DNA of 48,003 nt, filler included, from Jimgerdemannia flammicorona (taxonomy: Eukaryota): assembly GCA_003990765.1 (NCBI GenBank). It is 2 parts of 2 records of this genome, joined end to end, with 100 filler letters (N's around TTAATTAATTAA, not from the genome) between each part and the next. Parts side by side here need not be neighbours in the genome. Positions count along the whole stretch, not along the records: positions 24,060 to 48,003 come from RBNJ01001043.1; 1 more part is not named here. The stretch is one strand, 5' to 3'. Positions within the stretch are counted from its first letter, which is position 1; every line of letters begins with the position of its first letter. Of the stretch, positions 13,595 to 48,003 are shown one piece after another. Below the pieces are notes generated by a model that worked only from the letters and a program-made list of their open reading frames with translations, was not told the origin of the DNA and made no database searches. A program made the translations under genes and the position numbers.

Positions 13595-15090
13595 ATGACT
13601 ACTGAGATCTATAACTGCATCCATGCTGATATTTGGAATACCATTGTCAACTGAGCCACACCCCTCTACCTCTCATGAATATCCATAGCATAGCACTCCT
13701 TTACTTTGTGGAAGCCCAATAGAATACCCTGAACATGCTTAATGAGGCTCACTGGATCAGACAAATCTTAAGCTACTACCAGATTGATTACCTCCTGGAA
13801 GAAATGGTTGAACACCATTATGATACAGATATTACCCAGATGTCCCAACACCAGAAACTCATTGCCCGCAAACACCAAGAACTCTTCTATGAGTATAGCA
13901 CCTTTATTCTCTGCCTCTGAGTTACTACCAGTGAAATGGTTGCTATTCTATCCTATGGCCAAATCGATGACATGATATAAGAACTCAACCACAAGTACTT
14001 CGAGTACATCCAGACCACAGACAGAACCTTCCCACACTCCGATGACTATATCCTGCAAATGCCCCAAGTCGGATATACTATGAAGGACATCTACAATATA
14101 ATCTGGTTTGATGAAGATGAAGCAGAAGACAATGATCCCTCTGATACTGACATGACCCCAAGCCAAGGATCTCTACCAACACTAATCACACTGCCAATCT
14201 TATCAATAAACTTACAACAGTTCATAACTATCTACGAGACCTATTGGGACAATAATCACTGGCATGAATACCAATCTGTATTTATCCCCAATTACTTCAA
14301 CTATAATGAAGAGACTGGAGAATACAACCTGTATCTCCAGACAACCCTCAAGATCAAACCAACCACTCTACCAGCTGAGTATGAGTGACATGAACTACAG
14401 CCACCAGCATACTATAATCCCATAACTCATAGTGCTGTAACCTACAGAAGGTATGCAGACAGTGAATCTGATAAAAGTGAAGACAATGTACCACTCCTTC
14501 ACCCCCCAACACCTTATCCAGCATTAGTGCTCCCAATGAATCGAATCGAATTGAATTTGGCCCAAACTTGATTTGATTTGATCGAATCAAGGGTCCAATT
14601 CGATTTGAAGTTCGATTTGAACCTTAATTTTCAAAATGTAATAACTCGACGAAAGCTCATTCAAATTTAACGTATTTTAGCTTGTTAGATTTACCGTATT
14701 AATGTGATTCTAACAAGCTAAAGTACGTTAGATTTGGATGAGTTTACGCTGAGTTATTGCATTTTGAAAATCAGGGTTCAAATCAGACCCTTAATTCGAT
14801 TTGACTTTTGATTCAATTTGAATTGATTCAAATTGAAAAATCCCCAATTTGATTCAACTCGTTTAACCCTCAATTCGATTCAATTCGAATTGATTCGACT
14901 TGTTTGGGAGCACTATCCAGCATATGAGACAGATGATGCCATTCTGTAGGATGGTGATGAAGTTCCAATATATTATTATCTCAGCGAATAAGGAGAAGTA
15001 ATCTGTGAACCACTCTTCCTAGATGACTACTTCATCAGAGATGATGTCATCAATGGTGATGTCATCGAAGACTACCCAGATAGTGTCTAA
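13595..15090 (+). pseudogene. LTR-encoded ORF of unknown function (A1 copy, MITE-interrupted)
   Basis: Colinear with 24450-25547 once the MITE is removed; track ORFs 13735 and 14059 are pieces of it. Confidence 0.75.
14525..14915. mobile_element. Non-autonomous hAT-type MITE, 391 bp
   Basis: TIR TAGTGCTCCCAA/TTGGGAGCACTA; 8-bp TSD TCCAGCAT (14517-14524, 14916-14923); AATCG/ATTCG subterminal arrays; empty site near 25375. Confidence 0.92.
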
Positions 15091-15279
15091 ACCTATAAAT
15101 AGCTTAGCAGTCATAGTATAGTTAGATTAGCCTTATATAATATAACTGCGAACTGACTCAGCAGTCAGATGATCTCTTGATATATCAGATCACTCTTGTA
15201 CTACATGACTGCATTCCAACTCAGCAAGGCACTAAGTGCTACATCCATATCTAGCATAGTCCAGATAGCCTCTTACTAG

Positions 15280-15419
15280 TATAAATACCCCCTCCTCCAG
15301 ACCTTAGAATCTCAGACTTGAAAGACTTAAACACTCTAAACACAACTCCTGAGCACTTCCCCACAATATCCCTTTACACAACTACTCCTAGTATAGCAAT
15401 ATCATGAATAGCAAATAAA
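15280..15419 (+). promoter_or_regulatory. LTR TATA box and polyadenylation signal
   Basis: TATAAATA at 15280-15287 and AATAAA at 15414-15419; both conserved in all four LTR copies. Confidence 0.65.
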
Positions 15420-15777
15420 CCTATTTAATAATCTACAAACCACTCTTAAGTAAATCTACTCTCTGTTAGGTTCCACTTCTAACCCCATCACAAAATTTCC
15501 TAATTGGGTATTGTCTGCAGCGATATGCTAATTCAACTAAGCTGGTCTTAGTTTCTTGAACTTCCTGAAATACAGAAAATCCTGAGCATCCAGAACTAGT
15601 CTGAAAAAGGACTTTAGTTGAGATATCAATCTGATCTTGAAATCAATAAGCATAGAGAATGTACTCCATACAAAATTGATCTTAACCATAAGAAAACAGT
15701 CTTCCAGGACATCCAAAACTTCCAGAAAACCCTTCCAGAACTATGTAACAGTTATCCTAAAAAGCAACCCTCTTACA

Positions 15778-18700
15778 ATTTAAGAAGAAGATGAAGAACA
15801 TGAAGAGGAGTAAGTAGAAACACCTTTCTGGTCTATCTTATCTTTTATTTCTGAAATAGATAAGCAACTCTTAGAAGATAAAGAAATAGAGTAAGAAGAA
15901 CAGAAATCTGCTGCCCCAAAGCCCAAGAAGAAGTATATCCTAAAGACTATACCCAGAGATATCTACAATAAAGCCTGGCAAAAGATTTAAAAAGCCAAGA
16001 TAGAAGTTTCTCTCCTGCAGTTCTTACAACTAATACTAGCTAGAGTCTAAAACAAACTACTGAGAACTACCAGATCTAGTACTGGCTGAGTCCCAATCCC
16101 ATAGCAAGAGTCAGCTCCCACTCCTATTCAAGCTATAGAGAGACATATCAGTATCTATCTACATAGAGATATTAGAGGACAAAAGGCAAAAATTCTCATA
16201 GATATAGGAGCAGCTGTCTATATTATTACTAAATGATTTCTAGATACCCTCCAATAGCCCATTGATTGACCATCCAATCTTAGTATTATAGTAGCAGATA
16301 GAGCCCAAACTCAATCTCTTGGAGAAGTATGAAACATTACTATCTCTCTGAGATATATTTAGTTTTCTATTCCAAAGCTATTATCACTGAAGCTGTCACC
16401 TATGACATAATTCTTAACACTAACTGGATAAAGAAAATAAATACAGTGATCAATAAGTACTTAAGTTTAATTACTGAGATAAGAAGTACAGAGTCAAGGT
16501 GACCAGCTATAAACAATAAAAGAAGAAAAAGAAGGTCACCATTCAGAAGAAATATGCCAATAGTAAAGAATTTACTATAGAAGAGGAAGAAGAATCTAAA
16601 GATGGAAATAATCCCAGACTCAATACTTAAATCAATCTAGTAGATAATAGACCAGAAGATAATGTATGGACTAGAAACACTATCTCTATCACAATCAGAG
16701 CTATTGCAGAACAGATCAAAGGATATCCCACCTGCCTTAAGAGACACAAGTACTCTGAGCACTCCTCTAAGATTATTGAGACAAGGAATTTGCCTGGAAC
16801 AGCTTGCCCTGAGAGCAGAAAAAGGAAGAATAAATACAGATATATTCCAGAAACACCTGCAGCCAAAGCTACAGAAGTATAAGCAATCTGGGATCAAAAA
16901 TTATCTAAGGAAGAAGAAACCTCTAAATAGAAGATTCCTGAACAAGAAGTATCTAAAGAAGAAGAGGTTCCTGAACTTATTCCCTAAGATGACCCTTGCT
17001 GGATACCACCTGAAGATAATGATCCTTGAAATATTGAAGAAGGACTTAGTATAATCTCCATTATCCTAAAGTGAGAAATATATTAAGAAAGACAGAGACC
17101 CTAAAGGCTAGAACTCTCAACTATAATTGTATAGTCAACTACCTTTCAAAAAGTCACCACAAGATTACAAAGTTGATTTAGAGAATAAAGTCTCTTTACT
17201 CAAACAGAAGTATATCCCTTGGCTACTCTTTCTCTAACTTATGACTAAGATGGATACTGATTCCCAAGACAATAGGAGATTAATAGCCAGGAATAGTATT
17301 TTTAGGCAATGGAATATTGTAACTATAGAAGACACTCAGACTGCCAAGACTGTGGACACTAGAAGATTCACCTCAGCCAGGATGTTATAGTTTATACTCT
17401 AAAGAGAAGAAATAACAGAACCCAGATCCAAAAAAGCCAGACCAAGAAATCAGAAAGAAGGATTTTTCAAGATCTATAATTTGAGAGAAGATATCTTAGC
17501 TCTCATCAGACATACAACTTTCTGAGAATGAGTAGAAGATGCTACCAATTTTATGAAAGTTCTAGATCTTACAGGAAAAAGAGAAATCAATTATCTCCAA
17601 AATCTCTTTACTAGAGCCAGATGGGTGCATCTCAACCTCAGAGTTTAAAGACTTCCTGCCAGTAGAGCTTTAGCCCAAGGATAGTTCAAACTCAGCAAAG
17701 ATATTACCCAGTATATCCTGCTACAGCCCAAGGCTAAACCTCTAACCAAAGCTCACCAAGAAGACATAAGGTATAATCTCTTCAGTCTGGAGGATGAACT
17801 CATCAAATCTGAGAGAATATTGATGTTTAGAAATAGACTAGCCATACAGCCACCCAAAGAAACTTATATCCAACTGACCTCAAGGTCTGGACTTATCAGA
17901 TAAGGAGTAACTGTAGAAGGAGGAACTATAAATCTAGGATATATAGGTGAAATCAAGATCATTCTATATAATAGTAGTATAGAATGATATCAAATTCTTA
18001 AAGGACAGAAGATTGCTCAAGCAGTCTTCATGAAAGTCAAGACTCCCCAATTACAAGAAATCTCCAAACTGACTGAAAGAACAAGACAAGCTGAAGAATT
18101 TAGAAGCTCAGATAAGAAGAAAGTACATCTCCTTTAGGTCAACTACCTCAAGAAGAATGCCCCTCAATAAGTATATTGTCAATTAGTCAAACTGTACAAG
18201 AATCTCATCCTGGAGTCTAGAGAGCAAACCATTTTGAAATATTTATACCATCCAACCCCAGGAATCTCTTCTTCAAATCCAATAAAAATATCCTGAATCT
18301 AGATATTGAAAGACATATATTCTCTGACAAGATGAAACCAGTATACTCCTAAGCAATCAACCAGAGCTAAGAAAGCATCATCTTGTTAAAAGAAACCATT
18401 ATAGGATATCTAGTGCCTTTTTTCAACTGAACTCATAGAGAAATCTATGAGCTAAACTTATCAGGAAATGGCAAAAGATCTCAGAAGAAAGGAAAGACCC
18501 ATCTGTAACCCAGAAAACAGTAAAGCCTTCTACCAATATTAGAGAAGAATTGATATCTCAGCAATAGCAACAACTAGTAGAACTCCTTAATAAATATCAA
18601 GATATCTTCACTACTAATTATAGCAACCTACTATACAACTCATCATATCACTATAGTATAAATATAGCAAATGCAACACTTATCTGATAGAAATCTTACA

Positions 18701-24161: not shown

Positions 24162-26223
24162 TATAAGCACACAACCTCCAAGCCACCGAAATTATACTTC
24201 ACCTTCTGAACAAGCCACTGAAATCACACATGACCTCTGAACAAATCTGGAAATCACCTGCTTGATCATGAAGCTGAGTCAAACTGAAGTCATAGCACAC
24301 AAAGCTGAGTCAATACAAAGTCACAGAATACAAGATTCACACAAACAGAATCTTACCAATCAAGACCAAATGCATATATACTGAGCACTGAGACACATCG
24401 AATCAGAGAACCAAAACAAACAATAACCACAACTTCCAAACACATAAACATGACCACCGAGATCTATACCCATATCCGTATTGACATTTGTAATGCCATT
24501 GTCAACCAAGCCACACCCTCTCTACCCCTCATGAATATCCATAGCCTAGCACCCCTTTACTTTGTGGAAACCTGATGGAATGCCCTGAACATGCTTAATA
24601 AGGCCCACCAAATCAGACAAATCTTAAGCTACTACCAGATCAGCTGCCTCCTGGAAGACATGATCAAACACAACCATGATACAGATATTACCCAGATGTC
24701 TCAACACCAGAAGCTCATCACCTGCAAACATTGAGAACTCTTCTATGAGTATAGTACCATTATTCCTTATCTCCGAGTTACCACAGCTGAAATGGTTGCT
24801 ACCCTGTCCTACAGCCAAATTGATGATATGATACAAGAACTCAACCACAAGTACCTCGAGTATGTTGAAACCACAGATAGAACCTTCCCACACCTCGATG
24901 ACCACATCCTGCAAATGCCCCAAGTCAGATATGCTATGAAGGATGTTTACAATATAATCCGGTTTGATGAAGATGAAGCAGAAGACAATGATCCCTCTGA
25001 CACCAACATGACCTCTAGCCAAGGATCTCTGCCAACCCTGATCATACCGCCAACCTTACCGATGAACTTATAACAATTCATAACAGCATATGAGACTTAT
25101 TGGGACAATGACCACTGGCATGAATACCAATTCGCATTCATCCCTAATTACTTCAACTATAATGAAGAGACTGGAGAACACAACCTATATCTCCAGACAA
25201 CCCTCGAGATCGAACCAACCACTCTACCACCTGAGTATGAGTGACATGAATCATAACTGCCAGCTTACTACAACCCTGTGACTCATAGTACTATAACCTA
25301 TAGAAGATATGCAGATAGTGAAACTGATGAAAGTGAAGATGATGTACTACTCCTTTACCCACCAATACCTTATCCAGCATATGAGACAGATGATGCCATC
25401 TTGTGGGATGGAGACAAAGTTCCAATGTATTATTACCTTAGCAAACAAGGAGAAATAATCTGTGAACCACTCTTCCTAGATGACTACTTCATCAGAGATG
25501 ATGCAATCAATAGTGATGTCATCAAAGACTACTCAGACAGTGCCTAAACCTATAAATAGCCTAGCAGTCATAGTATAGTTAGATTAGCCTTGTACGATAT
25601 GACTGTGAACTGACTCAGCAGCCAGATGATCTCTTGATATGTCAGATCACACTTGTACTATGTGACTGCATTCTGACTCAGCAAGGCACTTAGTGCTACA
25701 TCCATATTTAGCATAGTCCAGATAGCCCCTCACTAGTATAAATACTCCCTCCCCCAGACCTCAGAATCTCAGACTCGAACACACAAAAACATTCCTGAAT
25801 ACTTCTCCACAATATCCCTTCACACAACTACTCCTAGTATAGCAATATCATAAATAGTGAATAAACTCATTTAATAACCCACAAACCACTCTTAAATAAA
25901 TCCACTCCCTGTTAGGTCCCACTCCTAACCCTGTCATGAAATTTCCTAATTGGATATTGTCTGCAGCGATATGCCAATTCAACTAAGCTGGTCTTAGTTT
26001 CTTGAACTTCCTGAAATATGGAAAATCCTGAACATCCAGAACTAGTTCAAAAAAGAACTTTGGTTGAGATGTCAATCTGATCTTGAAATCAATAAGCATA
26101 GAGGATGTACTCCATATGAAATTGATCTTGACCACAAGAAAATGGTCTTCCAGAATATCCAGAACCTCTAGAAAACCCTTCCAGAACTATGTAATGGTTA
26201 CCTTAAAAAGCAACCCTCTTACA
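24162..26223 (+). repeat. Family A LTR, uninterrupted, 2062 bp
   Basis: TATAAG (from TGTAAG)...CTTACA, followed by ACT and the PBS. Confidence 0.95.
24450..25547 (+). pseudogene. LTR U3-encoded 365-aa ORF of unknown function
   Basis: One frame from ATG ACC ACC GAG to GAC AGT GCC TAA. Length is 1098 nt both here and at 38817-39914. Most internal stops are sense codons in another copy. Confidence 0.8.
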
Positions 26224-26238: not shown

Positions 26239-26538
26239 TTTACAATCCAATTCCACTTCAAGATGCTTCCTCATCCTGCTACAAACCCCTCTGTGAATTC
26301 CTACAAGTTAGTATAAAGCCCAATCTCTGAACTGGAATTTATCCTGAACCATCTAACAATCTGGAGAGAATTGAATCTGACATACAAGGACAATTTGACC
26401 TCCACATCTACAACAAGTGGGACAAACTTCATTCAAAGAAAGAAATACTCAGCATCTTTCACCAGTAACATTCGAGTGACACAGGGCTCTGACAATACTT
26501 TTCACTACGTTTTTAGTGTTTGACAACTAACAACATAG

Positions 26539-28455
26539 ATGGCAATGATCAAACTGGTGAGTGTACTGGCCAGGGGGGTGGCAGCGCCTTTGGCTGGCAG
26601 TAGGTAGAGAGGAGGGGAGATGGTTTGAGGATGCCAGGGGCCTCGATGGCCAGCCGGGGTCCTAGTGGTGGAGGGAGGGGTGGTCTGAGGCAGCGTGGAG
26701 GGGAGAGGTCAATCTTTGCTGATAAGGTCTGAATGGGAAAGATGGCTTCGGGTCTCAATGGTTGGCTGGGCCTGAGGAAGGCATCGACGGCTGCTGCTAG
26801 GGGTCAGGGAGGTGTACCCAGGGGAGTCTCAGATGGCAGGGGAGGAGCGGGAGTAGGGGCTGGAGATGTGACAGTTGATTGGGCTGTGACTGGAGATCTG
26901 GCAAAAAATCCAGATGTAATGGCAGTTGATAATTTGGGACAGGGAATGGGCATGAGGCCCAGGGACCTAGCAGATGGGGTGACAGGCATGGTGTCAGCCC
27001 CGTTACTCAAGAAGTCGAGATTGGAATTCGCAGTCACAATGTGCTTCCGGGGCTTGGCAGTGATGGCAAGGATGATCTTGGGGCTGGTGGTGCAGGAGGC
27101 TAAGGGAGCAGTGTCGGTGAAGTTTTTGAGGAGAAAGAAAGGAGTTGAGGTGGGGTTTGAGGAGGAGGATACCTTGTTAGCAGCCATAGAGAAGGGGGTG
27201 ATGGTTGGCGGGGTTGTGGTCCCTATGGCCTGGTGCATGCGCTGGGACCCCCGTATGGTGCAGTTGACAATATTGGACCTCCCTACTGTGTCTAAGGAAA
27301 GGACCAGAGAGTTGGTTGTGGAGGTGATCAAGGAGTATGGCAAGATTGTAGATGTAGGGTTCAAGGTCTGGGAGGGCACAGAGCTTCAAACTGGTGATGT
27401 TGATGTCAGGGTGAGGCTGGCTGGGAAGGAGAATATGGGGAAGTCGAGGGACTGGCTGGTAATGCTGAGGTGGGGACTGGTGGAGTGTACGGTCACAAGG
27501 GTGAAGGGGACTCAGGAGAAGGAGGAGGACCTGTTGGAGGCTCTGGAGGACCTGGAAGGGGCAGTTGCAAGGAGGAGATTGGCCTGGAAGGAGTTTGAGG
27601 CCAAGATGGTAGTGGGGGAGGTGGATGGGAAGAAGGTCTGGATGGAGAAGGGGGCCTGAGAGAAGTTGCAGGAGAGGAGGATCCAGAAGGAGCTGTTGGC
27701 GAAGCTGGGTGGGGATGGAGCTGGTGGAGGCTCAGGGGAGGGAGTTGCAGGGTTGCAGAAGAGTGCCTGGGCTGAGGGGGGAGAGATGGCCCAGGGTGGG
27801 GCTTGGATTGGAATGGGGGAGGAGAGGGAGAGCAATCTGGAGGTACATAGATGCTGAAATGGGTGAGGGTGTACGCCCTCAGTATAGTGTTCCAGATGGA
27901 GCAGAGGGGGAGGAGGAGCTGATGGATGTGTCAGATGAGGAGTGGAATGAGTCAGTGAGGAGGAGCACACTGGTGGACCCTGAGGTGGATGGGGGACATA
28001 TTGCTCAGGAGGTGGTGGAGGTAGTGGATGAGGAGAAGTAGATGTGGAAGACCCTGGAAGGGGTAGCAGCTGAAGAGTTGGGGGGTGAGGACTTCAGGGT
28101 GATGGAGGAGAGGCATTGGGAGGAGATCCTACGGGGGGAGGAGGTGCCAAGGAAGATGAGGAATGAGATCCTGACTGTCCTCCTGGAGTCAGTTGAATAT
28201 CAAGTTGATGATCAGCGAGAGGAGGAACTTAGGAGAATTGCGAGTGACAGGGCACTTTTCTTGTGGAATTCAAGAAAGGAACTGGAGAAGTGGTGCACAG
28301 TCTGCTTGGACTATCAGGCAGATATGGAGGAAGTGAATAGAGTAGAATATCAGGAAATCTTGGGGGCACTGGATGCTTGGGATATGGCAGAGGGTGAATT
28401 GGAAGCTGAACAGCACTTGGATCTGGCAAGAGATGAGATGAGCATAGAATTATAG
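26539..28455 (+). pseudogene. LINE ORF1 of L2
   Basis: Homologous to 10972-13002 (APLLKKS..FAV.MCFRGLAVMA; EYG.IVD.GF.VWEG). Confidence 0.8.
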
Positions 28456-38816: not shown

Positions 38817-39914
38817 ATGACCACCAAGATCTATACCCATATCTATGCTGACATTTGGAATGCCATTGTCAACTGAGCCACACCCTCTCTACCCCTCATG
38901 AATATCCATAGTCTAGCACCCCTTTACTTTGTGGAAGTCCGATGAAATGCCCTAAACATACTTAATGAGGTCCACCAAATCAGACAAATCTCAAGCTACT
39001 ACCAGATCGGCCACCTTCTGGAAGACATGATCAAATACAACCATAATACAGATATTACCCAGATGTCTCAACACCAGAAGCTCATCGCCCACAAACATCA
39101 AGAACTCTTCTATGAGTATAACACTGTTATTCCCCATCTCCAAGTTACTACAGCTGAAATGGTTGCTACTCTGTCCTACAGTCAAATTGATGATATGATA
39201 TAAGAACTCAACCACATGTACCTTGAGTACATCAAAACCACAGACAGAACCTTCCCACACCCCGATGACCACATCCTGCAAATGCCCCAAGTTGGATATA
39301 CTATGAAGGCTGTTTATGATATAATCTGGTTCGATGAAGATGAAGCAGAAGATAATGATCTCTTTGACACCAACATGACCTCTAGCTAAGGATCTCTGCC
39401 AACTCTGATCATACTGCCAACCTTGCTAATGAACTTACAATAATTCATAACAACATACAAGACTTATTGGGACAATGACCACTAGTATGAATACTAACCC
39501 ACATTCATCCCCAATTACTTTAACTATAATGAAGAGACTGGAGAACACAACCTATATCTCCAGACAACCCTCGAGATCGAACCAACCACTCTGCCACCTG
39601 AGTATGAGTGACATGAACCACAACCGCCAGCTTACTACAACCCTGTGACTCATAGTGCTATAATCTATAGAAGGTATGCAGATAGCAAAACCAATGAAAG
39701 TGAAGACAATGCACTGCTCCTTCACCCACCAATACCTTATCCAGTATTTGAGACAGACGATGCTATCTTGTGAGATAGAGACAAAGTTCCAATGTATTAT
39801 TACCTCAGCAAATAAGGAGAAATAATCTGTGAACCACTCTTCCTAGATGACTACTTCATCAGAGATGATGCAATCGATGGTGATGTCATCAAAGACTACC
39901 TAGACAATGCCTAA
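38817..39914 (+). pseudogene. LTR U3-encoded ORF, third copy
   Basis: 1098 nt, colinear with 24450-25547. Confidence 0.78.
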
Positions 39915-40094
39915 ACCTATAAATAGCCTAGCAGTCATAGTATAGTTAGATTAGCCTTGTATGACATGACTGTAAACTGACTCAGCAGCCAGATGATCTC
40001 TTGACATATCAGATCACACTTGTACTACATGACTGCATTCTGACTCAGCAAGATACATACTTAGTGTTACATCAATATTTAGCATAGTCCAGAT

Positions 40095-40518
40095 TAGTGC
40101 TCCCAAATGAGTTGAATCAATTCGAATCGAATCGAATTGAGGGTTAAATGAGTCAAATCAAATTGGGGATTTTTCAATTCAAATTAATTCGAATCGAATC
40201 AAAAGTCAAATCGAATTGAGGGTCTAATTCAAACCCTAATTTTCAAAATGCAATAACTCAGCGTAAACTCATCCAAATCTAACGTACTTTAGCTCGTTAG
40301 AATCACATTAATACGGTGAATCTAATAAGCTAAAATATGTTAAATTTGGATGAGTTTTCGTCGAGTTATTACATTTTGAAAATTAAGGTTTGAATCAAAC
40401 TTCAAATTGAATTGGACCTTTGATTTGATTTGAATCAAATCAAATTGGACCCTTGATTCGATTGAATCAAATTGAGTTTGGGCCAAATTTAATTCGATTC
40501 GATTCGTTGAGAGCACTA
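40095..40518. mobile_element. hAT-type MITE, 424 bp, inverted relative to 14525-14915
   Basis: TIR TAGTGCTCCCAA/TTGAGAGCACTA; 8-bp TSD GTCCAGAT (40087-40094, 40519-40526). Confidence 0.92.
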
Positions 40519-41027
40519 GTCCAGATAGCCCCTCACTAGTATAAATACCTCCTCTCTCAGACCTCAGAATCTCAGACTCGAATACATAAGAACATTCCTG
40601 AATACTTCTCCACAATATCCCTTCACATAACTACTCCTAGTATAGCAATATCATGAATAGTGAATAAACCCATTTAATAACCCACAAACTACTCTTAAGT
40701 AAATCTACTCTCTGTTAGGTCCCACTCCTAACCCTATTATGAAATTTTCTAATTGGGTATTGTCTGCAGCAATATGCCAATTCAACTAAGCTGGTCTTAG
40801 TTTCTTAAACTTCCTGAAATACAGAAAATCCTGAACATCCAGAACTAGTCCAAAAAAGGACTTTGGTTGAGACATCAACCTGATCTTGAAATCAATAAGT
40901 GTAGAGGATGTACTCCATATGAAATTGATCTTGACCTACAAGAAAACAGTCTTCCAGAATATTCAGAACTTCCAGAAAATTCTTCTAGAACCATGTAACA
41001 GTTACCCTAACAAGTAACCCTCATACA

Positions 41028-44000
41028 ACTTGGTAGCAGCAGTTTACAATCCAATTTCACTTCAAGATGCTTCCTCACTCTGCTATAAACTCTTCTGAGA
41101 ATTCCTACAAGTTGGTATAAAGTCCAACCTCTGAACTGGAATTTATCCTGAACTATCTGACAATCTAGAGAGAATTGAACCTGACATACAAGGAAAATTT
41201 GACCTCCACACCTGCAATAAGTAGGACAAACTTCATTTGAAGAAAGAAATACTCCAGTTAAATCAGCAGATAGGTGAATCCCTATACACTGAACTTCTTG
41301 CACTACACCCAGCAAGTCAAGATGAAAAAGATCTTATAGAAACCTTTTTTACTCTTCTCAATAAAAGTTTTATCAGCTCTACAAATCTGAGTGATCTAGG
41401 ATAATCATCAGCAGTCTTTCTAGCCATAGTCCCTCATGAAGCCCAAGCCTCTGTAGCCAAGTGGCTCAACTCTACTGACTTTCACCATACCAGGACCAAG
41501 GCCACATTATACTACCATTTCCAGAACAGCAAGGCCTGCCATATTCTTAAGAAAGAAGCAAGAGAAACCCTTCATCAACAACCTGACCCCAAACCTGAAG
41601 CAGGTCCTGCTACAGCTCTACCTGAACCTGAAACCAATACTGAACCAGAACTTGTTTTTGAATTAAGTCCATCTGAAATCAGATATATGACTGATTCTGT
41701 CTACTTTGATGCTGAGCAAACCCAACTACACAGAGACCAAACTGAAGAGGAGGAGGAGTATCTTAGTAAATTTGATCCTGGATACACTACTGAAAAAGAC
41801 ACACCTCTATTAGGACAGAACACACCTATACAGCAACAAATAGCTATCTATCAAGCTCTTACTCCAGACCCACAACTACTACTCCAGCAACTTACACAGA
41901 CCCAAAGAACTCTATCACACTCTGCACCAGTACCTCAAGTAGTACCAGTAATACCACTACCAGTAGTCCAACACCTCCAGTAAACAATATGGCAAACCAA
42001 CAGATTATAGACCTCATAGCTCAGATAACCATAATAGCAGCAACCATTACTGCCTTAGCTGAACAGACCTGACCAATAAAAAATCTGAGCCTACCTATCT
42101 TCAATGGTACCACACAAGAAGTTCAAAGCTTCATCAGTATAGTTGATACCAACTTTGAAGCCAATCAATGGACAAATAAGCAAGTTGCTGACTGCCTTCT
42201 GATAAACAATCAAGACCACACTCTGGAACAACTCTTTGCTACCACTACAGCCTATGTCTGTCAAGTTGTTACATTCTTCTGAGGACCTGCTGAAGAATGG
42301 TGACAAACCCTTCCTGAAAAACCCCTCATATGGGACACCCAACCTGTAGTAGTTGCTCAGAATGCAGCAAATAATGCCCCAGAATATGGAGCCCATCCTG
42401 CAGCCCCTGGACTGAAACTACTCATGATTGCTCAATACCACAGTGAAACCATGATTGCTGAATCTCAAGTCAAACTCCATAACTTCAAATTCGATATACA
42501 TGGCAAAGAAGAATTCAAAACCTTCTGAACACTGTTGGCCTAGGATATATTGCCAATGGTGAAGCACAAAATAGTACAAGAGCAGACCATTTATTTGATA
42601 CACTATCTGAATAGCTTACTAGAAAAATCTGAGAACAAGGCCACCCAGTTGGTTGTAATCACCAACAATGATACTTGGCAAGAATCAAGACCATGGTCAA
42701 GTGAATCCTAACAGCTGGACCAATTCTGCCATGAAGACAATTCAACAATAAGGAAAAGACTTAGACCAAGAAAGAAGAACCCAAGCATGAAGCATCCTGA
42801 GCTCCCTTTATATCCACCTCTTGGATACCCAGAAATCATGAACCCACCCAGCTGAGTACCTTTAAGAAACTTACTAAAGGAGAAAGAAATAAACTTTGAA
42901 GAAGTGGAGCATGCTTCTATTGCCAAAGACAGGACATATGGTCAGTGCCTGCCCTAACTGAAAACCTTGAACAGCAATATGAGCAACTGTTACTACTCTG
43001 TACCATCTTAATAATCTGACCACCAGAATACTGAACTTTGTCAAGTTAAGGCAAACTGCCAAGGCCCCAACTAAAGGAAGTCAAAAAGCAGCTGGATATG
43101 ATCTGTATGCAGCCGAAGAAGCTACAGTTTCCAACTGAGAAGTTAAGCAAGTCTACATAGGAATCAGCATCCAAATTCTCAAAGGACATGTAGGAAGAAT
43201 ATGCTGTTGCAGCAGCCTAGCATTGAAAGGACTCTCAGTAGAAAGAGGAGTCATTGACAAAGATTATACAAGTGAAATTATTGTCCTCATCTGAAACCAT
43301 AGTTGGACACCCTTCAAGATCCCTATTGGTTTCTGTATTGCTCAGATCCTATTTGAAAAAATTGAGTCAACTCTGATAGTCAAGGAAGTCCCTGAACTAC
43401 TACTTATCATCCAAGGATCCAAAGGATTTGGCTCATCAAACAAGGCCCCAGCCCAACCTACCATAAATAAAGAAGAGCAATTCTATAAGAAGATTGAAGA
43501 TGGATATGTACCAAGTGGCTGATGTCCCCATGGTATTAGAATGTACTCTTTCTGAATGATTGATGATTGCTTCTCTTATATCAACAAACTGGCTCAAAGA
43601 AGAACCAACAGAAGGAAAGCTCCTACAACTGAAATCACCACCATTGGATCAGACAAACTGCTTATACTTCAAGCTTTTGTCAATCAAGCACTTGTCAAGA
43701 TTATGATAGACAGCAGTGCCTCAGGCAACTTCATCAATGAAGAAACAGCCAACAGACTCAAGGTCTTCACCTTTCCAGTACAACAAACTCAAGCAGTTGC
43801 CACAGCTGATGGAACCTCACATGTTATTAGCAAGGAAGTCTGCAATCTGCCCTTCAGAATTGGTGACTACCAAGTACATATTACCCTCCAGATCATACCA
43901 CTTCCTGATAATGAAATCATTCTTGGAACCCCATGGTTGAAATAAGAGAACCCTATGATCAATTGGGTAAACCATTCTCTAACCATCAAGAAAGAATGCC

Positions 44001-45875
44001 ACAACTTCAAACTGCAAGATAAAAAGGACCCACTCAGCTCCAGTGACTCTGGACCAAAGATCATCCACATCAACAAGCTACAGCTCAAGAAATTAGCCAA
44101 GAAATGCCCTCTCTTTGTCATCTCCATCTGTCTATCCAAAGGAGAACCCAAGAACTCTGAAGAAGACTTTTCCAAAGTTGACAGCTATGTTAGACCACTA
44201 CTCTAGAAAGTCTAAGACACATTTCTGAACTAAACTACAGAACCACCTGTACCTGTCATTATCAATGACCAAGAAGAGTACAAAGTTGAACAAATCCTCA
44301 ACAAATATAGCCACAAGAACCATCCAAATGGTACAACAATACTAGATCAAATTAGAAGGTCTCAATGAGGATATCGAAAGCTAAGAAGGAGAGAGTTATA
44401 AGCACATAACCTCCAAGCCACCAAAATTGCATATCATTCTCAGAACTAATTTGGAAACCATATGTGAGACTACAAAACAAGTTACTGAAGAGATCATCTG
44501 GTTACACAAAATATGCCAGCAAATATGAGAATCTACTACCATGATATAAGAATACCAGAAGAAGTACTATAACTATAAGACTGACTCTGAACCTCTATAA
44601 CTAGTTTAATGTACTGTACTATTACAAAAGGAAACTGAAAGTACCAAACTCAAACTGAGACAAGAAGGACCCTATCTCATCTATCAAGGGTTCATGAACT
44701 GCACTTATCAAACTCAAGATCAAGATATACCATGACTATACAAGACCTCATTACTTAGCAAAAGCAAAACATATTTGAACAACTCTGTTTACTCTATCTG
44801 TATCACCTCTATTGGAGAATAATGGATACTTCATCTGAACTCAAGAAAGCCAATATTGTCAAAACCAATCTCAAGTCATCCACATAATAGATATTACTAC
44901 TAAAAATTGCCTCAGATTATAGAAAATATCATTTCCAAGAGATTTGAACCCTCAGCTGTAATATTGAGAGTCCTCACCCTAGACAAGGATGGCCAGTCCT
45001 CACAAATGTGCCAGCAGGCCAAAAAAAAAGAGAACCAAGACCTGTTATTCTTGTACAACCAAGGATAGCCTTAATCTTGCAAGAGATAAAAGTGATAATA
45101 CCTTGAAACTAATGATATCAGAAGTCAGAAAACTGCTCAGACTTTGCCAGAGATGATATCATCAATAGTGATATCATCAAAGACTACTTAGATAGTATCT
45201 AAATCTATAAATAGTTTAGCAGTTATAGTATAGTTAGATTAGCCTTATGACATGACTGTGAACTGACTCAGCAGTCAGACAATCTCTTGACATATCAGAT
45301 CACACTTGTACTATGTGACTGCATTCTGACTCAGCAAAGCACTAAGTGCTATATCTATATTCAGTATAGTCCAGATAGCCCCTTACTAGTATAAATACCC
45401 CCTCCCTCAGACCTCAGAATCTTAGACTCGAACACATAAGAACATTTCTGAATACTTTCTCATAATATCCCTTTATACAACTACTCCTAGTATAGCAATA
45501 TCTGAATAGTAAATAAATCTATTTAATAACCCACAAATCACTCTTAAGAAAATCCACTCCCTGTTAGGTCCCACTCCTAACCCTGTCATGAAATTTCCTA
45601 ATTGGGTATTGTCTGCAGTAATATGCCAATTCAACTAAGCTGGTCTTAGTTTCTTAAACTTCCTGAAATATAGAAAATCCTGAACATCTAGAACTAGTCT
45701 AAAAAAGGACTTTGGTTGAGACATTAACCTGGTCTTGAAATCAATAAGCGTAGAGAATATACTCTATATGAAATTGATCTTGATCATAAGAAAATAGTCT
45801 TCCAGAATATTCAGAACTTCCAGAAAATCCTTCCAGAACTATGTAATAGTTACCCTAACAAGTAACCCTCTTATA
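41028..45875 (+). mobile_element. Family A copy A3: internally deleted (RT-RH-IN lost) with rearranged 3' LTR
   Basis: PBS at 41031, gag ATG at 41989, dUTPase and PR present. Jumps at ~44229 to the chromodomain start and at ~44325 to the pre-PPT UTR. LTR at 44397-45875. Confidence 0.92.
44397..45875 (+). repeat. Chimeric family A LTR (most of U3 replaced)
   Basis: LTR-like at ~44397-44462 and 45148-45875 (ends CTTATA); the ~0.7 kb between is unrelated to the other LTRs. Confidence 0.88.
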
Positions 45876-46731
45876 CTTTATCAATATATTTAATATTATA
45901 ATGATTGATTTAAATACTATAATGAAATAAATGATGTTAAAAAAGATATTTTCTCTACTCTATAAGATTTAGATTTAGAAAATTATTAAAAAATGATTAG
46001 AAGAGGATAAGATAAAAAAGGAACCATTTGAAGAAGACCAAAGGGAAGAGTTTAGAAATTGTTATAATCTTTATAGTATTTCTCTTAAAGATATAGTAAA
46101 AGATATTACTAAATGAATTGCAAAAGTTAAAATTGAATATAAAAGTTTCAAAAAAACTATTGAGAAACTTTTATTAGATTATTCTGAATTAACAGAAGAG
46201 GATATAAAAAATAAAAGAGTATATTGATTGGAAGAAGAACTACAAAAATTATTAGAGAAAATCAAAAATAGTAAATTAGATAAACTCAATAAGGTTGTTA
46301 TGAGAATTATTAAAAAATAGAAAATAAATACCAAAACTCACTTTATCTTCTTTACTAAAATTAGTAAGAAATGGAATGATAAAAAGGAAGTATCTTTAAA
46401 AGAGAAAATTAGAGATAAGTTGAAATTGTTAGAAAAAGAATATGAGAAAAATATTATTCAAGAAGCCAAGATTAAAAAACTTCAAGCAGAATTATATAAA
46501 TAAAAAAAATTATTAGTAAAAGAGTATGAAAAAATCAAAACTCAAAAGGTAGAAAAAGAGAACTTGTAAAGATAATTATATTTATTCAAAAAAGCTTTAT
46601 TTAAAATACCAAGCAAGTTTAAAATATTAGAAATAAAAATAAAAAGTAAATTTTTATAATTATTAGAAAAAGTTAAGTCTCAAACTTGAGAAATAGTTGC
46701 TTAGATAGAAGTTAAGACTAAGTATTAGTAA
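45876..46731 (+). pseudogene. AT-rich degenerate K/E-rich helical ORF, 3' part; possibly of endobacterial origin
   Basis: One frame 45979-46731 plus an upstream frame from 45876 (slip in an A-run). Stops are TGA, or TAA/TAG at positions where Gln fits. Ends ..IVA(Q)IEVKTKY followed by TAG TAA. Confidence 0.6.
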
Positions 46732-46745
46732 GAGAGTTAATTTAC

Positions 46746-48003
46746 ACCTCTTTCACAAGTAACATTTGGGTGACACAAGACTCAGACAATACTTTTTACT
46801 ATGTTTTTGGTGTCCAGCGACTATCAACATGGATGGCAATGATTGAACTAGTGAGTATACTGGTCAGGGGGGTGACAGCGCCTTTGGCTGGAGTAGGTGG
46901 AGAGGAGGGGAGATGGGTTGGGAATGCCGGGGGCCTCGATGGCTAGCTGAGGCCCTGGTGGTAGAGAGAGGGGTGGGCTAAGGCAGCAAGGAGGGGAGAG
47001 GTTGACCTTTACTGACAAGGTCAGAATAGGAAAGATGGCCTCAGGCCTTGATGGTTGGCTGGGCCTGGGGATGGTATCGATAGCTGCTGTTGGGGGACAG
47101 GGAGGTGTTCCCAGGAGAGTCTCAGGTGGCAGGAAAGGGGCAGGAGTAGGGGCTGGAGATGTGACTATTGATGGGGCTGTGACTGGGGATCTGGAAAAAA
47201 ATCCAGATATGACAGTGGTTGGCACTTCAGGAATAGAAGTGGGTACGAGGCCCGGGGACCTGACAGATGGGGTGACAGGCATGGTGTCGGCCCCATTACT
47301 CAAGAAGTTGAGGTCAGAATTTGCAGTCATGATGTGCTTCCGGGGCTTGGCAGTGATGGCAAGGATGATTTTGGGGCTGGTGGCACAGGAGGCTAAGAGA
47401 GCAGCATCAGTGAAGTTTTTGAAGGGTAAGGAAGGGGTTGAGGTGGGGTTTGAAGAGGAAGATGCCTTGTTGGCAGCCATGGAGAAGGGGGTAATAGTTG
47501 GCAGAGTTGTGGTCCCTATGGCCTGGTGCATGTGCTGGAACCCCCGAGTGATGCAGTTGATGGTATTGGACCTCCCTACTGTGTTGAAGGAAAGGACCAG
47601 GGAGTTGGTTGTGGAGGCGATCAAGGAGTATGGTGAGATTGTAGATGTTGGGTTCAAGGTCTGGGAGGGCATGGAGCTTAGAACTGGCGACGTCGATGTC
47701 AGGGTGAGGCTGGCTGAGAAGGAGAATACAGGGAAGTTGAGGGACTGACCAGCAATGCTGAGGTGGAGACTGGTGGAGTGTAAGGTCACCAGGGTAAAAG
47801 GGACTCCAGAGGAGGAGAAGGACCTGTTGGAGGCTCTGGAGGACCTGGAAGGGGCAGTTGCAAGGAGGAGATTAGCCTGGAAGGAGTTTGAGGCCTGGAC
47901 AGTGGTGGGGGAGGTGGATGGGAAGAGGGTCCAGATGGAGAAGGGGGCCTGGGAGAAGATGCAGGGGAGGAGGATCCAGAAGGAGCTGTTGGCGAAGTTG
48001 GGT
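46746..48003 (+). mobile_element. LINE copy L4, 5' UTR and ORF1 start (runs off window); same subfamily as L2
   Basis: CTTTCACAAGTAACATT.. matches the L2 5' end at 26455; ORF 47002-47748 is closely similar to 26733-27659. Confidence 0.93.

What the first reader, a model, noticed from the sequence alone, without database searches (positions are those of the whole stretch)
45876..46731. AT-rich degenerate ORF may be Mollicutes-endosymbiont (MRE) DNA in the fungal chromosome
Seen: an abrupt shift to very AT-rich, AAA/GAA/TTA/ATT-dominated codons unlike the flanking TEs. In-frame TGAs at 45906, 45994, 46114 and 46225 read naturally as Trp (YYNDWFKYY, KKWLEE, TKWIAK, VYWLEEE). The C-terminus is ..EIVA(Q)IEVKTKY. 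The ORF is cut by an LTR on the left and followed by a LINE, and it shows the same CAA->TAA/CAG->TAG decay, so it resides in this chromosome. Known: Mucoromycota fungi host Mycoplasma-related endobacteria (Ca. Moeniiplasma), and most Mollicutes read UGA as Trp. From memory, unverified: many MRE proteins end in a QIEV/KIEV-type motif. Caveat: the TGAs could equally be decayed CGA (Arg).
Basis: partly seen in the sequence, partly recalled or inferred. Interest (0 to 1): 0.8.

Follow-up and report, generated by a model that had tools for sequence, protein, structure and literature searches.

The report
Dead endobacterial gene inside host chromosome
A very AT-rich 873-base stretch between two retroelements is the decayed remnant of a gene otherwise found in Mollicutes-related bacteria that live inside soil fungi, which suggests bacterial DNA entered the host's chromosome.

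Summary
Window 45876-46748 is 19.6% G+C. It lies between the end of an LTR (45875) and the 5' end of a LINE (46749). It holds one broken reading frame.

Read through, the frame matches an uncharacterised coiled-coil protein family (E 1e-28; 115 clusters in a profile search). One member is named by NCBI as a protein of the Mollicutes-related endobacterium 'Mycoplasmataceae bacterium RV_VA103A'. The only two homologous loci whose DNA I could read are open only if TGA is Trp: 18 in-frame TGA and no TAA/TAG in 1,596 codons.

A fifth, at 46687, sits at an Arg/Gln position. Four TAA/TAG sit at Gln of the named MRE protein. The invariant C-terminal tail of the family (A-[RQK]-I-E-V-[KR]-x-x) is present.

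The copy is dead. It has an 11-base deletion and nine internal TAA/TAG codons, it is cut at both ends, and it has a strong C>T/G>A bias (13 against 1).

Best reading (0.7): MRE-type DNA, probably from an MRE mobile element, was inserted into a eukaryotic chromosome and then decayed.

Still open: the direction of transfer, the host's identity, and read-level proof of the junctions.

The parts
45148..45875 (+). LTR of a Ty3-type retroelement. Its 3' end forms the left border of the fragment.
   Evidence: It is 85-91% alike to three other LTR copies in the window (25493-26221, 15036-15782, 39860-41025), and all end at the same point. Two of those copies are followed by a primer-binding-site-like stretch and gag. 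This one is followed by the AT-rich fragment.
45876..46748 (+). The whole AT-rich fragment. It is the decayed, truncated remnant of a gene of the MRE-type coiled-coil family, plus a few bases beyond its stop.
   Evidence: 19.6% G+C. Homology E 1.1e-28. tblastn with the code-4 homologs hits only 46108-46719 in the 48-kb window. blastn finds no other copy in the window.
45876..45965 (+). Upstream part of the remnant, in the neighbouring frame. It holds the TGA at 45906.
   Evidence: The frame translation aligns locally with P0118, with the TGA on its Trp and the TAA at 45963 on its Gln. By eye it also resembles the YYPGTNW stretch of L001/L002, where that Trp is TGA.
45978..45979 (+). Site of an 11-base deletion that shifts the reading frame.
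   Evidence: A soil-metagenome contig about 94% alike carries 11 more bases behind 45978 (tables 4 and 8). P0118 has three more residues there.
45979..46725 (+). Main part of the remnant. It covers the coiled-coil region, the conserved core (LLLDYSEL .. VVMRII .. KTHF) and the C-terminal tail. Four TGA and seven TAA/TAG codons lie inside it.
   Evidence: 45% identity over 196 aa to P0002 and 44% over 207 aa to P0003. 66% over 80 aa to P0118. 42% over 139 aa to the named MRE protein P0036. Codon table.
46726..46731 (+). TAG TAA, probably the original stop codons.
   Evidence: 70 of the 91 family proteins with the tail motif end three residues after it, and four end four residues after it. The window has four (KTKY) before TAG TAA.
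46732..46748 (+). Possible remnant of the start of the downstream gene (ORF3 of the module). Tentative.
   Evidence: Seen by eye only. The bases after the stop resemble the ATGAGAGAA.. start of ORF3, which follows the family gene in L001 and L002. The stretch is too short for any statistic.
46749..48003 (+). 5' part of a G+C-rich LINE. It forms the right border and runs off the window.
   Evidence: 86% alike to 26455-27710 over 1,256 bases, starting at the same element base. Other LINE copies in the window carry endonuclease and reverse-transcriptase domains.

Best explanation
Window 45876-46748 is a pseudogene fragment of bacterial endosymbiont origin sitting in eukaryotic nuclear DNA.

Its ancestor was a gene of a large, uncharacterised, all-helical coiled-coil family carried by Mollicutes-related endobacteria (MRE). 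These bacteria read TGA as Trp. In them the gene sits in a three-gene module: a DUF7869 DDE-type transposase, the family gene, and a zinc-ribbon/coiled-coil gene.

Inferred history:
1. DNA released from endobacteria in the host cytoplasm was joined into a chromosome, as happens with organelle and Wolbachia DNA in other hosts.
2. It could never be expressed there, because the TGA codons stop translation in the nucleus.
3. It was then hit by the same C>T/G>A decay that marks the neighbouring retroelements, which lowered its G+C from about 31% to 20%.
4. It lost 11 bases.
5. It was cut down to 873 bases by an LTR element on the left and a LINE on the right.

It has no function now. It is a molecular fossil of endobacterium-to-host DNA flow.

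Shown: homology, the TGA=Trp reading of the relatives, the named MRE member, the decay bias and the borders.
Inferred: the direction of transfer, the mode of integration and the order of events.
For: 1. Family membership. E 1.1e-28 and 8.5e-27. Pairwise 45%/196 aa and 44%/207 aa. A profile of 7 sequences finds 115 cluster representatives at E<=1e-3, 61 at <=1e-10 and 9 at <=1e-30 among 1.84 billion.

2. The relatives use TGA=Trp. In the two loci with DNA (2 confirmed of 347 pattern matches), five ORFs of 503, 362, 225, 334 and 172 codons are open under table 4, with 18 in-frame TGA and no TAA/TAG. Under table 11 the family gene breaks into pieces of 86 and 104 aa, or 72 and 63 aa. One TGA of the L001 transposase (position 226) aligns with Trp in 6 of 6 long Rhizophagus/Gigaspora proteins, so the Trp reading is right.

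3. A named MRE member. P0036 is KLL04446.1/KLL04573.1, 'MAG: hypothetical protein MRERV_17c008 / MRERV_22c039 [Mycoplasmataceae bacterium RV_VA103A]'. It was a profile hit at E 1.3e-18. It is 42% identical to the window product over 139 aa at E 4e-20, and shares the tail. The neighbouring transposase also has a homolog named Candidatus Moeniiplasma glomeromycotorum (P0176, 53%).

4. Codons. The TGAs at 45906, 45994, 46114 and 46225 lie on Trp of homologs. L001 has TGA at three of these sites.

5. Distribution.
- Of the 17 family proteins whose cluster records I looked up, 1 carries an organism name, and it is MRE. The other 16 are unnamed metagenome proteins.
- Of the 9 hits, the only 2 with an organism name are Geosiphon gene models.
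- Many family hits are short C-terminal pieces without Trp that start at TTG/GTG. That is what code-11 gene calling on TGA=Trp genes would produce.

6. Tree of 41 rows. The three copies embedded in eukaryotic DNA fall in three separate places, each beside a different non-fungal row:
- window with P0029 (SH-aLRT 85);
- Geosiphon P0007 with the code-4 locus L001 (99);
- Geosiphon P0010 with P0009 (100).
This fits repeated insertions better than one fungal gene family.

7. Decay after divergence. Against P0118, 13 of 24 differing codons need only C>T/G>A and 1 needs only the reverse. Against sites where L001 equals L002, 29 of 48 G and 8 of 16 C changed, but only 14 of 99 A and 9 of 66 T.

8. Residence in host DNA. 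Both borders are retroelement termini shared with other copies in the window.
Against: - Direction is not proven. MRE are known to take up host genes (PMC10507103 passages; PMC5982333 passages). The transposase beside the family gene belongs to a eukaryotic TE family with 35-45% identical full-length copies in Rhizophagus and Gigaspora. The whole module could therefore have started in the fungus.
- The TGA pattern is weak evidence. My own rough likelihoods (no tool call) use the six Trp-aligned or Trp codons of the window: 4 TGA, 1 TGG and 1 TAG. They favour a TGA ancestor by about 26:1 if the per-G decay rate was 0.15 and by about 2:1 at 0.3. At 0.5 they favour a TGG ancestor by about 4:1.
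- The TAG at 46318 lies where L001 and L002 have TGA. One G>A step from TGG explains it better than a change from TGA.
- No read or contig bridging either junction was found, and no whole genome is held for the window.
- I did not show that the host is a fungus.
- I saw no DNA of the named MRE genome. None of five scans of the prokaryote genome collection found the family, its neighbour or that genome.
Confidence: 0.7

Rival explanations
1. Transfer ran the other way. The family is cargo of a fungal DUF7869 DNA transposon. The window holds a dead fungal copy whose TGG codons decayed to TGA or TAG, and the endobacteria later picked up the module from their host.
For: - The transposase family is plainly eukaryotic and abundant in Glomeromycotina. 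One search gave 129 hits, with Rhizophagus, Gigaspora, Diversispora, Ambispora, Geosiphon and one fish protein among them.
- Host-to-MRE transfer is the documented direction.
- In Geosiphon the transposase homolog G9A89_019164 and the family homolog G9A89_019163 lie on the same 2,055,023-base contig.
- G>A decay is strong enough to turn TGG into TGA.
- The TAG at 46318 is one step from TGG.
Against: - No intact standard-code copy of the coiled-coil family was seen. The only fungal-named members are two Geosiphon models that skip the stretches holding the Trp codons.
- Of 17 family proteins looked up, none is from Rhizophagus, Gigaspora or another well-sampled fungus.
- The eukaryote-embedded copies are scattered among non-fungal rows in the tree.
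- At the transposase's TGA position 317, none of the 5 Geosiphon models that reach it has Trp: 3 have gaps and 2 end just before it. At the TGG position 128, 4 of 6 do have Trp. Positions 49 and 226 are mixed, with 3 Trp of 4 and 2 of 6.
Confidence: 0.17
2. Assembly artefact. A piece of endobacterial DNA from the same sample was wrongly joined between two repeats.
For: - Glomeromycotina assemblies are known to contain MRE contigs annotated as fungal (PMC10507103 passages; PMC11423566 abstract and the first third of the text).
- Both borders are repeats.
- No bridging read or contig was found.
Against: - The fragment is heavily decayed, with nine internal TAA/TAG and a frameshift, and the bias matches that of the neighbouring TEs.
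- It ends exactly at element termini on both sides.
- A soil metagenome holds contigs 94-95% alike to two parts of it. The window product is only 66% identical in protein to the nearest intact-looking relative. Whether those contigs share the window's stop codons was not checked.
Confidence: 0.06
3. It is a nuclear copy of mitochondrial DNA or of a mitochondrial plasmid. Fungal mitochondria also read TGA as Trp.
For: Table 4 is shared by mould mitochondria and Mollicutes. The code-4 loci L001 and L002 carry no gene that is diagnostic of bacteria.
Against: - One family member is placed by NCBI in an MRE genome, with two copies on two contigs.
- A family of 115 clusters at 50% identity is far more diverse and multi-copy than mitochondrial genomes allow.
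- The neighbouring transposase has a homolog in a Ca. Moeniiplasma MAG on a 124,773-base contig.
Confidence: 0.04
4. It is a chance open frame in AT-rich filler DNA.
For: AT-rich Lys/Glu-rich frames arise easily. Pfam gives only a coiled-coil match at E 0.54.
Against: E 1e-28 to real proteins, a 66%-identical relative, 73% DNA identity over 229-248 bases to L001/L002, and the conserved C-terminal tail.
Confidence: 0.01

Closest known systems
Hypothetical proteins MRERV_17c008 / MRERV_22c039 (KLL04446.1, KLL04573.1) of 'Mycoplasmataceae bacterium RV_VA103A', an MRE genome (name as given)
   Same: Same protein family. 42% identity over 139 aa at E 4e-20. Same C-terminal tail (AQIEV + K/R + TK). 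Gln in the MRE protein where the window has TAA or TAG (46567, 46573, 46702), and Arg where it has TGA 46687.
   Different: The MRE protein is a whole 296-aa product. The window copy is cut at its 5' end, frameshifted, full of stop codons and 20% G+C, and it lies between eukaryotic retroelements.
Nuclear insertions of endosymbiont or organelle DNA (NUMTs, NUPTs, Wolbachia-derived nuclear inserts). Established knowledge, recalled.
   Same: A donor-type sequence that uses the donor's genetic code lies inside host nuclear repeats. It is non-functional and decays at the host's mutational bias.
   Different: The donor would be a Mollicutes-related endobacterium of a fungus-like host. My searches found only host-to-MRE transfer and MRE contamination in print, not MRE-to-nucleus inserts (passages). 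Read-level proof of integration is lacking here.
Geosiphon pyriformis gene models G9A89_019163 and G9A89_011350 (P0007, P0010)
   Same: They are members of the same family embedded in large contigs labelled as fungal, of 2,055,023 and 576,376 bases. Like the window copy, they cannot be read straight through.
   Different: They belong to other branches of the family. P0007 sits beside code-4 L001 and P0010 beside P0009. They were annotated as genes by skipping the Trp-bearing stretches. I have not seen their DNA.
Repeat-induced point mutation and methylation-driven C>T decay of fungal repeats (established knowledge, recalled)
   Same: Strong C>T/G>A bias in the fragment (13:1). Differences between the neighbouring TE copies are almost all transitions: 147 of 173 for the LINE and 71 of 75 for the LTR.
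   Different: No clear dinucleotide preference could be shown: G>A at AG 14 of 37, TG 8 of 20, GG 3 of 5 and CG 1 of 1. The fragment is single-copy in the window, so classical duplication-triggered RIP is not shown.

Membership tests
MRE-type coiled-coil family with conserved C-terminal tail (uncharacterised; includes MRERV_17c008) | Significant sequence similarity over the core and the C-terminal half | tested here: met
   E 1.1e-28. 45%/196 aa, 44%/207 aa, 42%/139 aa and 66%/80 aa.
MRE-type coiled-coil family with conserved C-terminal tail (uncharacterised; includes MRERV_17c008) | C-terminal tail A-[RQK]-I-E-V-[KR] followed by about three residues and a stop | tested here: met
   91 of 124 family proteins carry the motif in their last 14 residues, and 70 of those 91 have exactly three residues after it. 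The window has A-(TAG)-I-E-V-K-T-K-Y, then TAG TAA.
MRE-type coiled-coil family with conserved C-terminal tail (uncharacterised; includes MRERV_17c008) | Trp encoded mainly by TGA | tested here: inconclusive
   In L001 and L002, 8 of the 9 Trp codons of the family gene are TGA. The window has TGA at four Trp positions, TAG at one and TGG once. G>A decay of TGG could give the same picture.
MRE-type coiled-coil family with conserved C-terminal tail (uncharacterised; includes MRERV_17c008) | Intact, translatable gene | tested here: not met
   A frameshift at 45978, nine internal TAA/TAG codons, and about 85 N-terminal codons missing. It is a remnant of a member, not a working member.
Nuclear insertion of endosymbiont DNA (NUMT / Wolbachia-insert kind) | The sequence is of donor (endosymbiont) type | tested here: met
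   A named MRE homolog and relatives readable only under code 4. The direction of transfer is still inferred.
Nuclear insertion of endosymbiont DNA (NUMT / Wolbachia-insert kind) | Contiguous with host nuclear sequence on both sides in single molecules | tested here: inconclusive
   In the assembly it abuts an LTR end and a LINE start. The only public run found is a soil metagenome kept as short contigs, and none bridges a junction.
Nuclear insertion of endosymbiont DNA (NUMT / Wolbachia-insert kind) | The donor lives in, or lived in, this host | not testable with these tools
   No genome is held for the window. The host was not identified beyond a eukaryote with LINE and Ty3-type elements.
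Deamination-type hypermutation of repeats (RIP-like) | Excess of C>T and G>A over the reverse changes | tested here: met
   13 against 1 of 24 differing codons versus P0118. 24 G>A against 10 A>G in the core versus L001=L002.
Deamination-type hypermutation of repeats (RIP-like) | A preferred dinucleotide context (CpA for classical RIP, CpG for 5mC decay) | tested here: inconclusive
   There are too few sites and no clear preference.
NUMT (nuclear copy of mitochondrial DNA) | Homology to the mitochondrial genome of the host lineage | not tested
   No mitochondrial genomes were available to search. The family's size and the named MRE member argue against it.

The most novel reading that the evidence does not exclude
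A mobile module of Mollicutes-related endobacteria moves in both directions between the bacterium and the nuclei of its fungal host. The module is a eukaryote-type DUF7869 transposase plus two coiled-coil genes that share an invariant C-terminal tail. Archaeosporales-like fungi have repeatedly taken pieces of it into their chromosomes. There, host genome defence mutates them, and gene predictors mistake them for fungal genes. That would make MRE DNA a recurrent, datable source of nuclear sequence, a fungal counterpart of Wolbachia inserts, and the module a rare cross-kingdom transposon.
Probability: 0.3. Interest if true: 0.78.

Novelty: new member of a known kind. Interest (0 to 1): 0.58.

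Why it matters
[quoted passage not shown] MRE-like sequence in fungal assemblies has been treated as contamination (passages read).

A decayed MRE-type gene locked between host retroelements would be physical evidence for flow the other way. It would also:
- give a way to date past infections from the decay of such inserts;
- warn that some 'hypothetical proteins' in Glomeromycotina annotations are built over endobacterial pseudogenes;
- point to a large, unstudied MRE protein family whose invariant C-terminal tail looks like a sorting or assembly signal.

Its limits are that it is one dead 873-base fragment, and that direction and integration are not yet proven.

Tried and rejected
- Own genome. 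None is held, so other copies in the assembly could not be sought.
- Earlier findings. Nothing by place, sequence or words.
- Curated libraries. Pfam, NCBIfam and PHROGs gave no family for the window product or its intact relatives, only weak coiled-coil matches below cut-off.
- Prokaryote genome collection, five scans:
  - family alignment, 0 of 134 stretches confirmed;
  - L001 transposase, 0 of 112;
  - the Ca. Moeniiplasma protein P0176, 0 of 26;
  - transposase alignment, 0 of 137;
  - the named MRE protein P0036, 1 of 310, a 29% coiled-coil match in a Ruminococcus MAG that I regard as spurious.
  The MRE genomes therefore seem not to be in that collection, and I saw no DNA of a named MRE.
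- Viral contigs. 0 of 589 stretches confirmed.
- Rest of the window. tblastn under table 4 found no remnant of the transposase, of ORF3 or of the N-terminal 85 residues of the family gene.
- Public runs. One soil metagenome with a 0.05 share of words. When laid, no contig bridges 45875/45876 or 46748/46749, and 46372-46706 has no cover. This says nothing either way about the junctions.
- Host taxon. Two protein-atlas look-ups with TE ORFs gave only generic eukaryotic retroelement clusters.
- Structure. The AlphaFold model of P0003 with 42 aligned sequences is all long helices, with mean pLDDT 76.4 and pTM 0.35. I ran no fold search, because a coiled coil at that pTM would give meaningless matches.
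- Alternative nuclear codes. I considered a ciliate-type or Condylostoma-type code (TAA/TAG=Gln, TGA=Trp) for the whole window. I rejected it because the retroelement frames show TGA at Arg positions by eye (reverse-transcriptase motifs recalled), and stop codons of all three kinds are scattered as in decay.
- LTR target-site duplication. None seen by eye around 45148-45875.
- Papers not held. The two 2015 PNAS papers on MRE genomes were not read. Supplements of the papers I cite were not opened. Either may already list this family or such inserts.
Full report
**The sequence**

Window 45876-46748 is an island of 19.6% G+C (A 0.50, T 0.30, G 0.13, C 0.06). It lies in a window otherwise made of retroelements of about 35-40% and 50-57% G+C.

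The left neighbour is an LTR. Three other copies in the window, 85-91% alike, end at the same base. Two of them are followed by a primer-binding-site-like stretch and gag, whereas this one is followed by the island.

The right neighbour is the 5' end of a G+C-rich LINE. It starts at 46749, exactly where a second copy starts at 26455 (86% over 1,256 bases).

Other parts of the window encode LINE endonuclease and reverse transcriptase, and Ty3-type reverse transcriptase, dUTPase and aspartic protease. The setting is therefore eukaryotic nuclear DNA. I could not show that it is a fungus.

**The frame**

From 45877 one frame runs to 46731. It holds 4 TGA, 6 TAA and 5 TAG codons. The TGA at 45906 lies in the neighbouring frame.

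The change of frame is explained by a deletion. A soil-metagenome contig about 94% alike carries 11 more bases behind 45978. The closest protein relative has three more residues at that place.

**It is a real gene remnant**

Read through, the frame finds two proteins at E 1.1e-28 and 8.5e-27 out of 5,078 scored candidates. They are 45% and 44% identical over about 200 residues.

A search with the better of these found 9 proteins. A profile of 7 sequences found 115 cluster representatives at E<=1e-3 among 1.84 billion.

Features of the family:
- It is uncharacterised. Pfam, NCBIfam and PHROGs give nothing above cut-off.
- It is predicted to be all long helices (mean pLDDT 76.4, pTM 0.35).
- It has a striking invariant C-terminal tail. 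91 of 124 proteins have [IVM]-E-[IVT] in their last 14 residues, mostly as A-R/Q/K-I-E-V-K/R, and 70 of those 91 end exactly three residues later.

The window has this tail, followed by TAG TAA. I found no paper that mentions it.

**Who owns the family**

Three lines of evidence point to Mollicutes-related endobacteria (MRE).

First, the only two homologous loci whose DNA I could fetch are readable only with TGA as Trp. They are L001 (3,545 bases) and L002 (1,641 bases), 2 confirmed of 347 pattern matches.
- Under table 11 the family gene falls into pieces of 86 and 104 aa, or 72 and 63 aa.
- Under table 4 there are five clean ORFs of 503, 362, 225, 334 and 172 codons, with 18 in-frame TGA and no TAA or TAG.
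- Adjacent genes are separated by one base (L001) or twelve (L002), which is a prokaryote-like arrangement.
- One of these TGAs, transposase position 226, aligns with Trp in 6 of 6 long Rhizophagus/Gigaspora homologs. The Trp reading is therefore sound.

Second, family member P0036 is named by NCBI as 'MAG: hypothetical protein MRERV_17c008 / MRERV_22c039 [Mycoplasmataceae bacterium RV_VA103A]'.
- It was a profile hit at E 1.3e-18.
- It aligns with the window product at 42% over 139 residues, E 4e-20, including the tail.
- Of the 17 family proteins whose records I looked up, it is the only one with an organism name. The other 16 are unnamed metagenome proteins.

Third, many family hits are short C-terminal pieces with no Trp that begin with Leu or Val. 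That is what table-11 gene callers would make of TGA=Trp genes.

**The codons in the window**

| Window codon | Aligned residue in homologs |
|---|---|
| TGA 45906 | Trp in P0118; by eye the YYPGTNW Trp of L001/L002 (codon TGA) |
| TGA 45994 | Trp in P0118; TGA in L001; Tyr in L002 |
| TGA 46114 | Trp in P0118 |
| TGA 46225 | Trp in P0002, P0003, P0006, P0008; TGA in L001 and L002 |
| TGA 46687 | Gln in P0002/P0003; Arg in the MRE protein P0036 |
| TAG 46318 | Trp; TGA in L001 and L002 |
| TAA 46567, TAA 46573, TAG 46702 | Gln in P0036 |
| TAA 46657 | Gln in P0002 |
| TAA 45963 | Gln in P0118 |

The Arg caveat fits the fifth TGA.

**Decay**

Against the closest relative, P0118 (66% over 80 residues), 24 codons differ in the main frame. 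Of these, 13 can be explained by C>T or G>A changes alone, 1 by the reverse changes alone, and 10 by neither.

At sites where L001 and L002 agree, the core of the window copy has changed 29 of 48 G (24 of them to A) and 8 of 16 C. It has changed only 14 of 99 A and 9 of 66 T. At protein level this shows as 12 Glu>Lys changes.

The neighbouring TE copies differ from each other almost only by transitions: 147 of 173 for the LINE and 71 of 75 for the LTR.

The intact homologs are about 31% G+C. Roughly a third of the island's AT-richness is therefore decay in place, and the rest is inherited. No dinucleotide preference could be shown.

**How much the TGAs prove**

They prove less than they seem to. 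With a G>A rate this high, TGG would often become TGA.

My own rough likelihoods (no tool call) use the six Trp-aligned or Trp codons: 4 TGA, 1 TGG and 1 TAG.

| Assumed per-G decay rate | Which ancestor is favoured |
|---|---|
| 0.15 | TGA-using, about 26:1 |
| 0.3 | TGA-using, about 2:1 |
| 0.5 | TGG-using, about 4:1 |

The case for an endobacterial origin rests on the family's distribution, not on the TGAs.

**Direction of transfer**

The family gene travels with a DUF7869 DDE-type transposase and a zinc-ribbon/coiled-coil gene that ends in the same tail (L001).

The transposase family is eukaryotic and abundant in Glomeromycotina (129 hits):
- 69-75% identity in Ambispora leptoticha;
- many partial Geosiphon models;
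- 35-45% in full-length Rhizophagus and Gigaspora proteins;
- even one fish protein;
- one homolog in a Candidatus Moeniiplasma glomeromycotorum MAG (53%).

In Geosiphon the transposase and family homologs are neighbours: G9A89_019164 and G9A89_019163, on the same 2,055,023-base contig. The module could therefore have begun in the fungus.

Against that:
- No intact standard-code copy of the coiled-coil family turned up.
- The Geosiphon models skip the stretches that hold the Trp codons.
- At transposase position 317 (TGA in L001), none of the 5 Geosiphon models that reach it has Trp. Three have gaps and two end just before it.
- At position 128 (TGG in L001), 4 of 6 do have Trp.
- Positions 49 and 226 are mixed, with 3 of 4 and 2 of 6.

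I also built a quick maximum-likelihood tree of 41 rows. It used 38 of the 124 family proteins, chosen for length and for cover of the core and tail, and left out the short fragments. To these I added L001, L002 and the window copy. The three eukaryote-embedded copies sit in three separate places:
- the window with P0029 (SH-aLRT 85);
- P0007 with code-4 L001 (99);
- P0010 with P0009 (100).

The named MRE protein sits in yet another clade, with P0020 (99). This fits several independent insertions of endobacterial DNA better than a single fungal family.

**What is known**

I read only passages returned by term searches, plus one abstract and the first third of one text. They describe host-to-MRE gene transfer and MRE contigs mislabelled as fungal in Glomeromycotina assemblies (PMC10507103; PMC11423566).

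One study of bacterial genes in Rhizophagus states that the donors were not known MRE (PMC5982333).

My searches found nothing on MRE DNA integrated in a fungal chromosome, nothing on DUF7869 and nothing on the tail motif. The two 2015 PNAS papers on MRE genomes were not available, and no supplements were opened.

**Not settled**

- No read or contig spans a junction. The one public run found is a soil metagenome kept as short contigs. It holds the LTR and LINE families at depths of tens to thousands, and two pieces 94-95% alike to the fragment at depth about 2.
- The host species is unknown.
- No DNA of a named MRE genome was seen.

**Verdict**

This is most likely (0.7) a dead piece of MRE-type DNA in a host chromosome. 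That makes it a new member of the known class of endosymbiont-derived nuclear inserts, in a symbiosis where only the opposite flow has been described in what I could search.

Noticed in passing
L001:2-1513 (metagenome locus): A eukaryote-type DUF7869 DDE transposase is encoded with TGA=Trp (4 in-frame TGA). It has relatives at 69-87% identity in unnamed metagenomes and in Ambispora, and at 53% in a Ca. Moeniiplasma MAG. Full-length Rhizophagus/Gigaspora proteins are 35-45% identical. It looks like a transposon family shared across kingdoms.
   Followed up: partly
Proteins P0007, P0010, P0147, P0181, P0199 (Geosiphon pyriformis gene models; no DNA seen): These annotated 'hypothetical proteins' appear to be built over the same endobacterial-type module. 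They skip the Trp-bearing stretches, or end right before them. They are probably pseudogene artefacts of annotation.
   Followed up: partly
L001:2784-3461 and L002:1126-1641: The gene downstream of the family gene encodes a Cys-rich zinc-ribbon-like N-terminus and a coiled coil. In L001 it has the same A-Q-I-E-V-K-K motif, followed directly by a TGA. Two unrelated neighbouring proteins share the tail, which suggests a sorting or assembly signal.
   Followed up: no
Proteins P0016, P0120 (family members, metagenome): These members have Trp where others have Arg or Gln in the tail (A-W-I-E-V-K) and just before it. This matches the window's TGA at 46687. Either AGA/CGA>TGA is a common one-step change in this family, or these are decayed copies called under table 4.
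   Followed up: no
window 46749-48003 vs 26455-27710; 45148-45875 vs 25493-26221: Copies of the same retroelement differ almost only by transitions: 147 of 173 for the LINE and 71 of 75 for the LTR. Compared with the many copies in a soil metagenome, the window's copies more often have T where the others have C (32 places) than C where the others have T (14).
   Followed up: partly
window 40094-40517: The LTR copy at 39860-41025 is interrupted by about 420 bases of lower G+C (0.318 in the profile) that are absent from the other LTR copies.
   Followed up: no
window 42893-43945: The Ty3-type element carries a dUTPase domain (E 5e-28) just upstream of its aspartic protease.
   Followed up: no
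window 45300-47300 laid on run X1: A soil metagenome holds the window's LTR family at word depths in the thousands and the LINE family at tens to hundreds. It also holds two short contigs 94-95% alike to the fragment, one of them with the 11 bases the window has lost. A close relative of the source organism therefore seems to occur in soil.
   Followed up: partly
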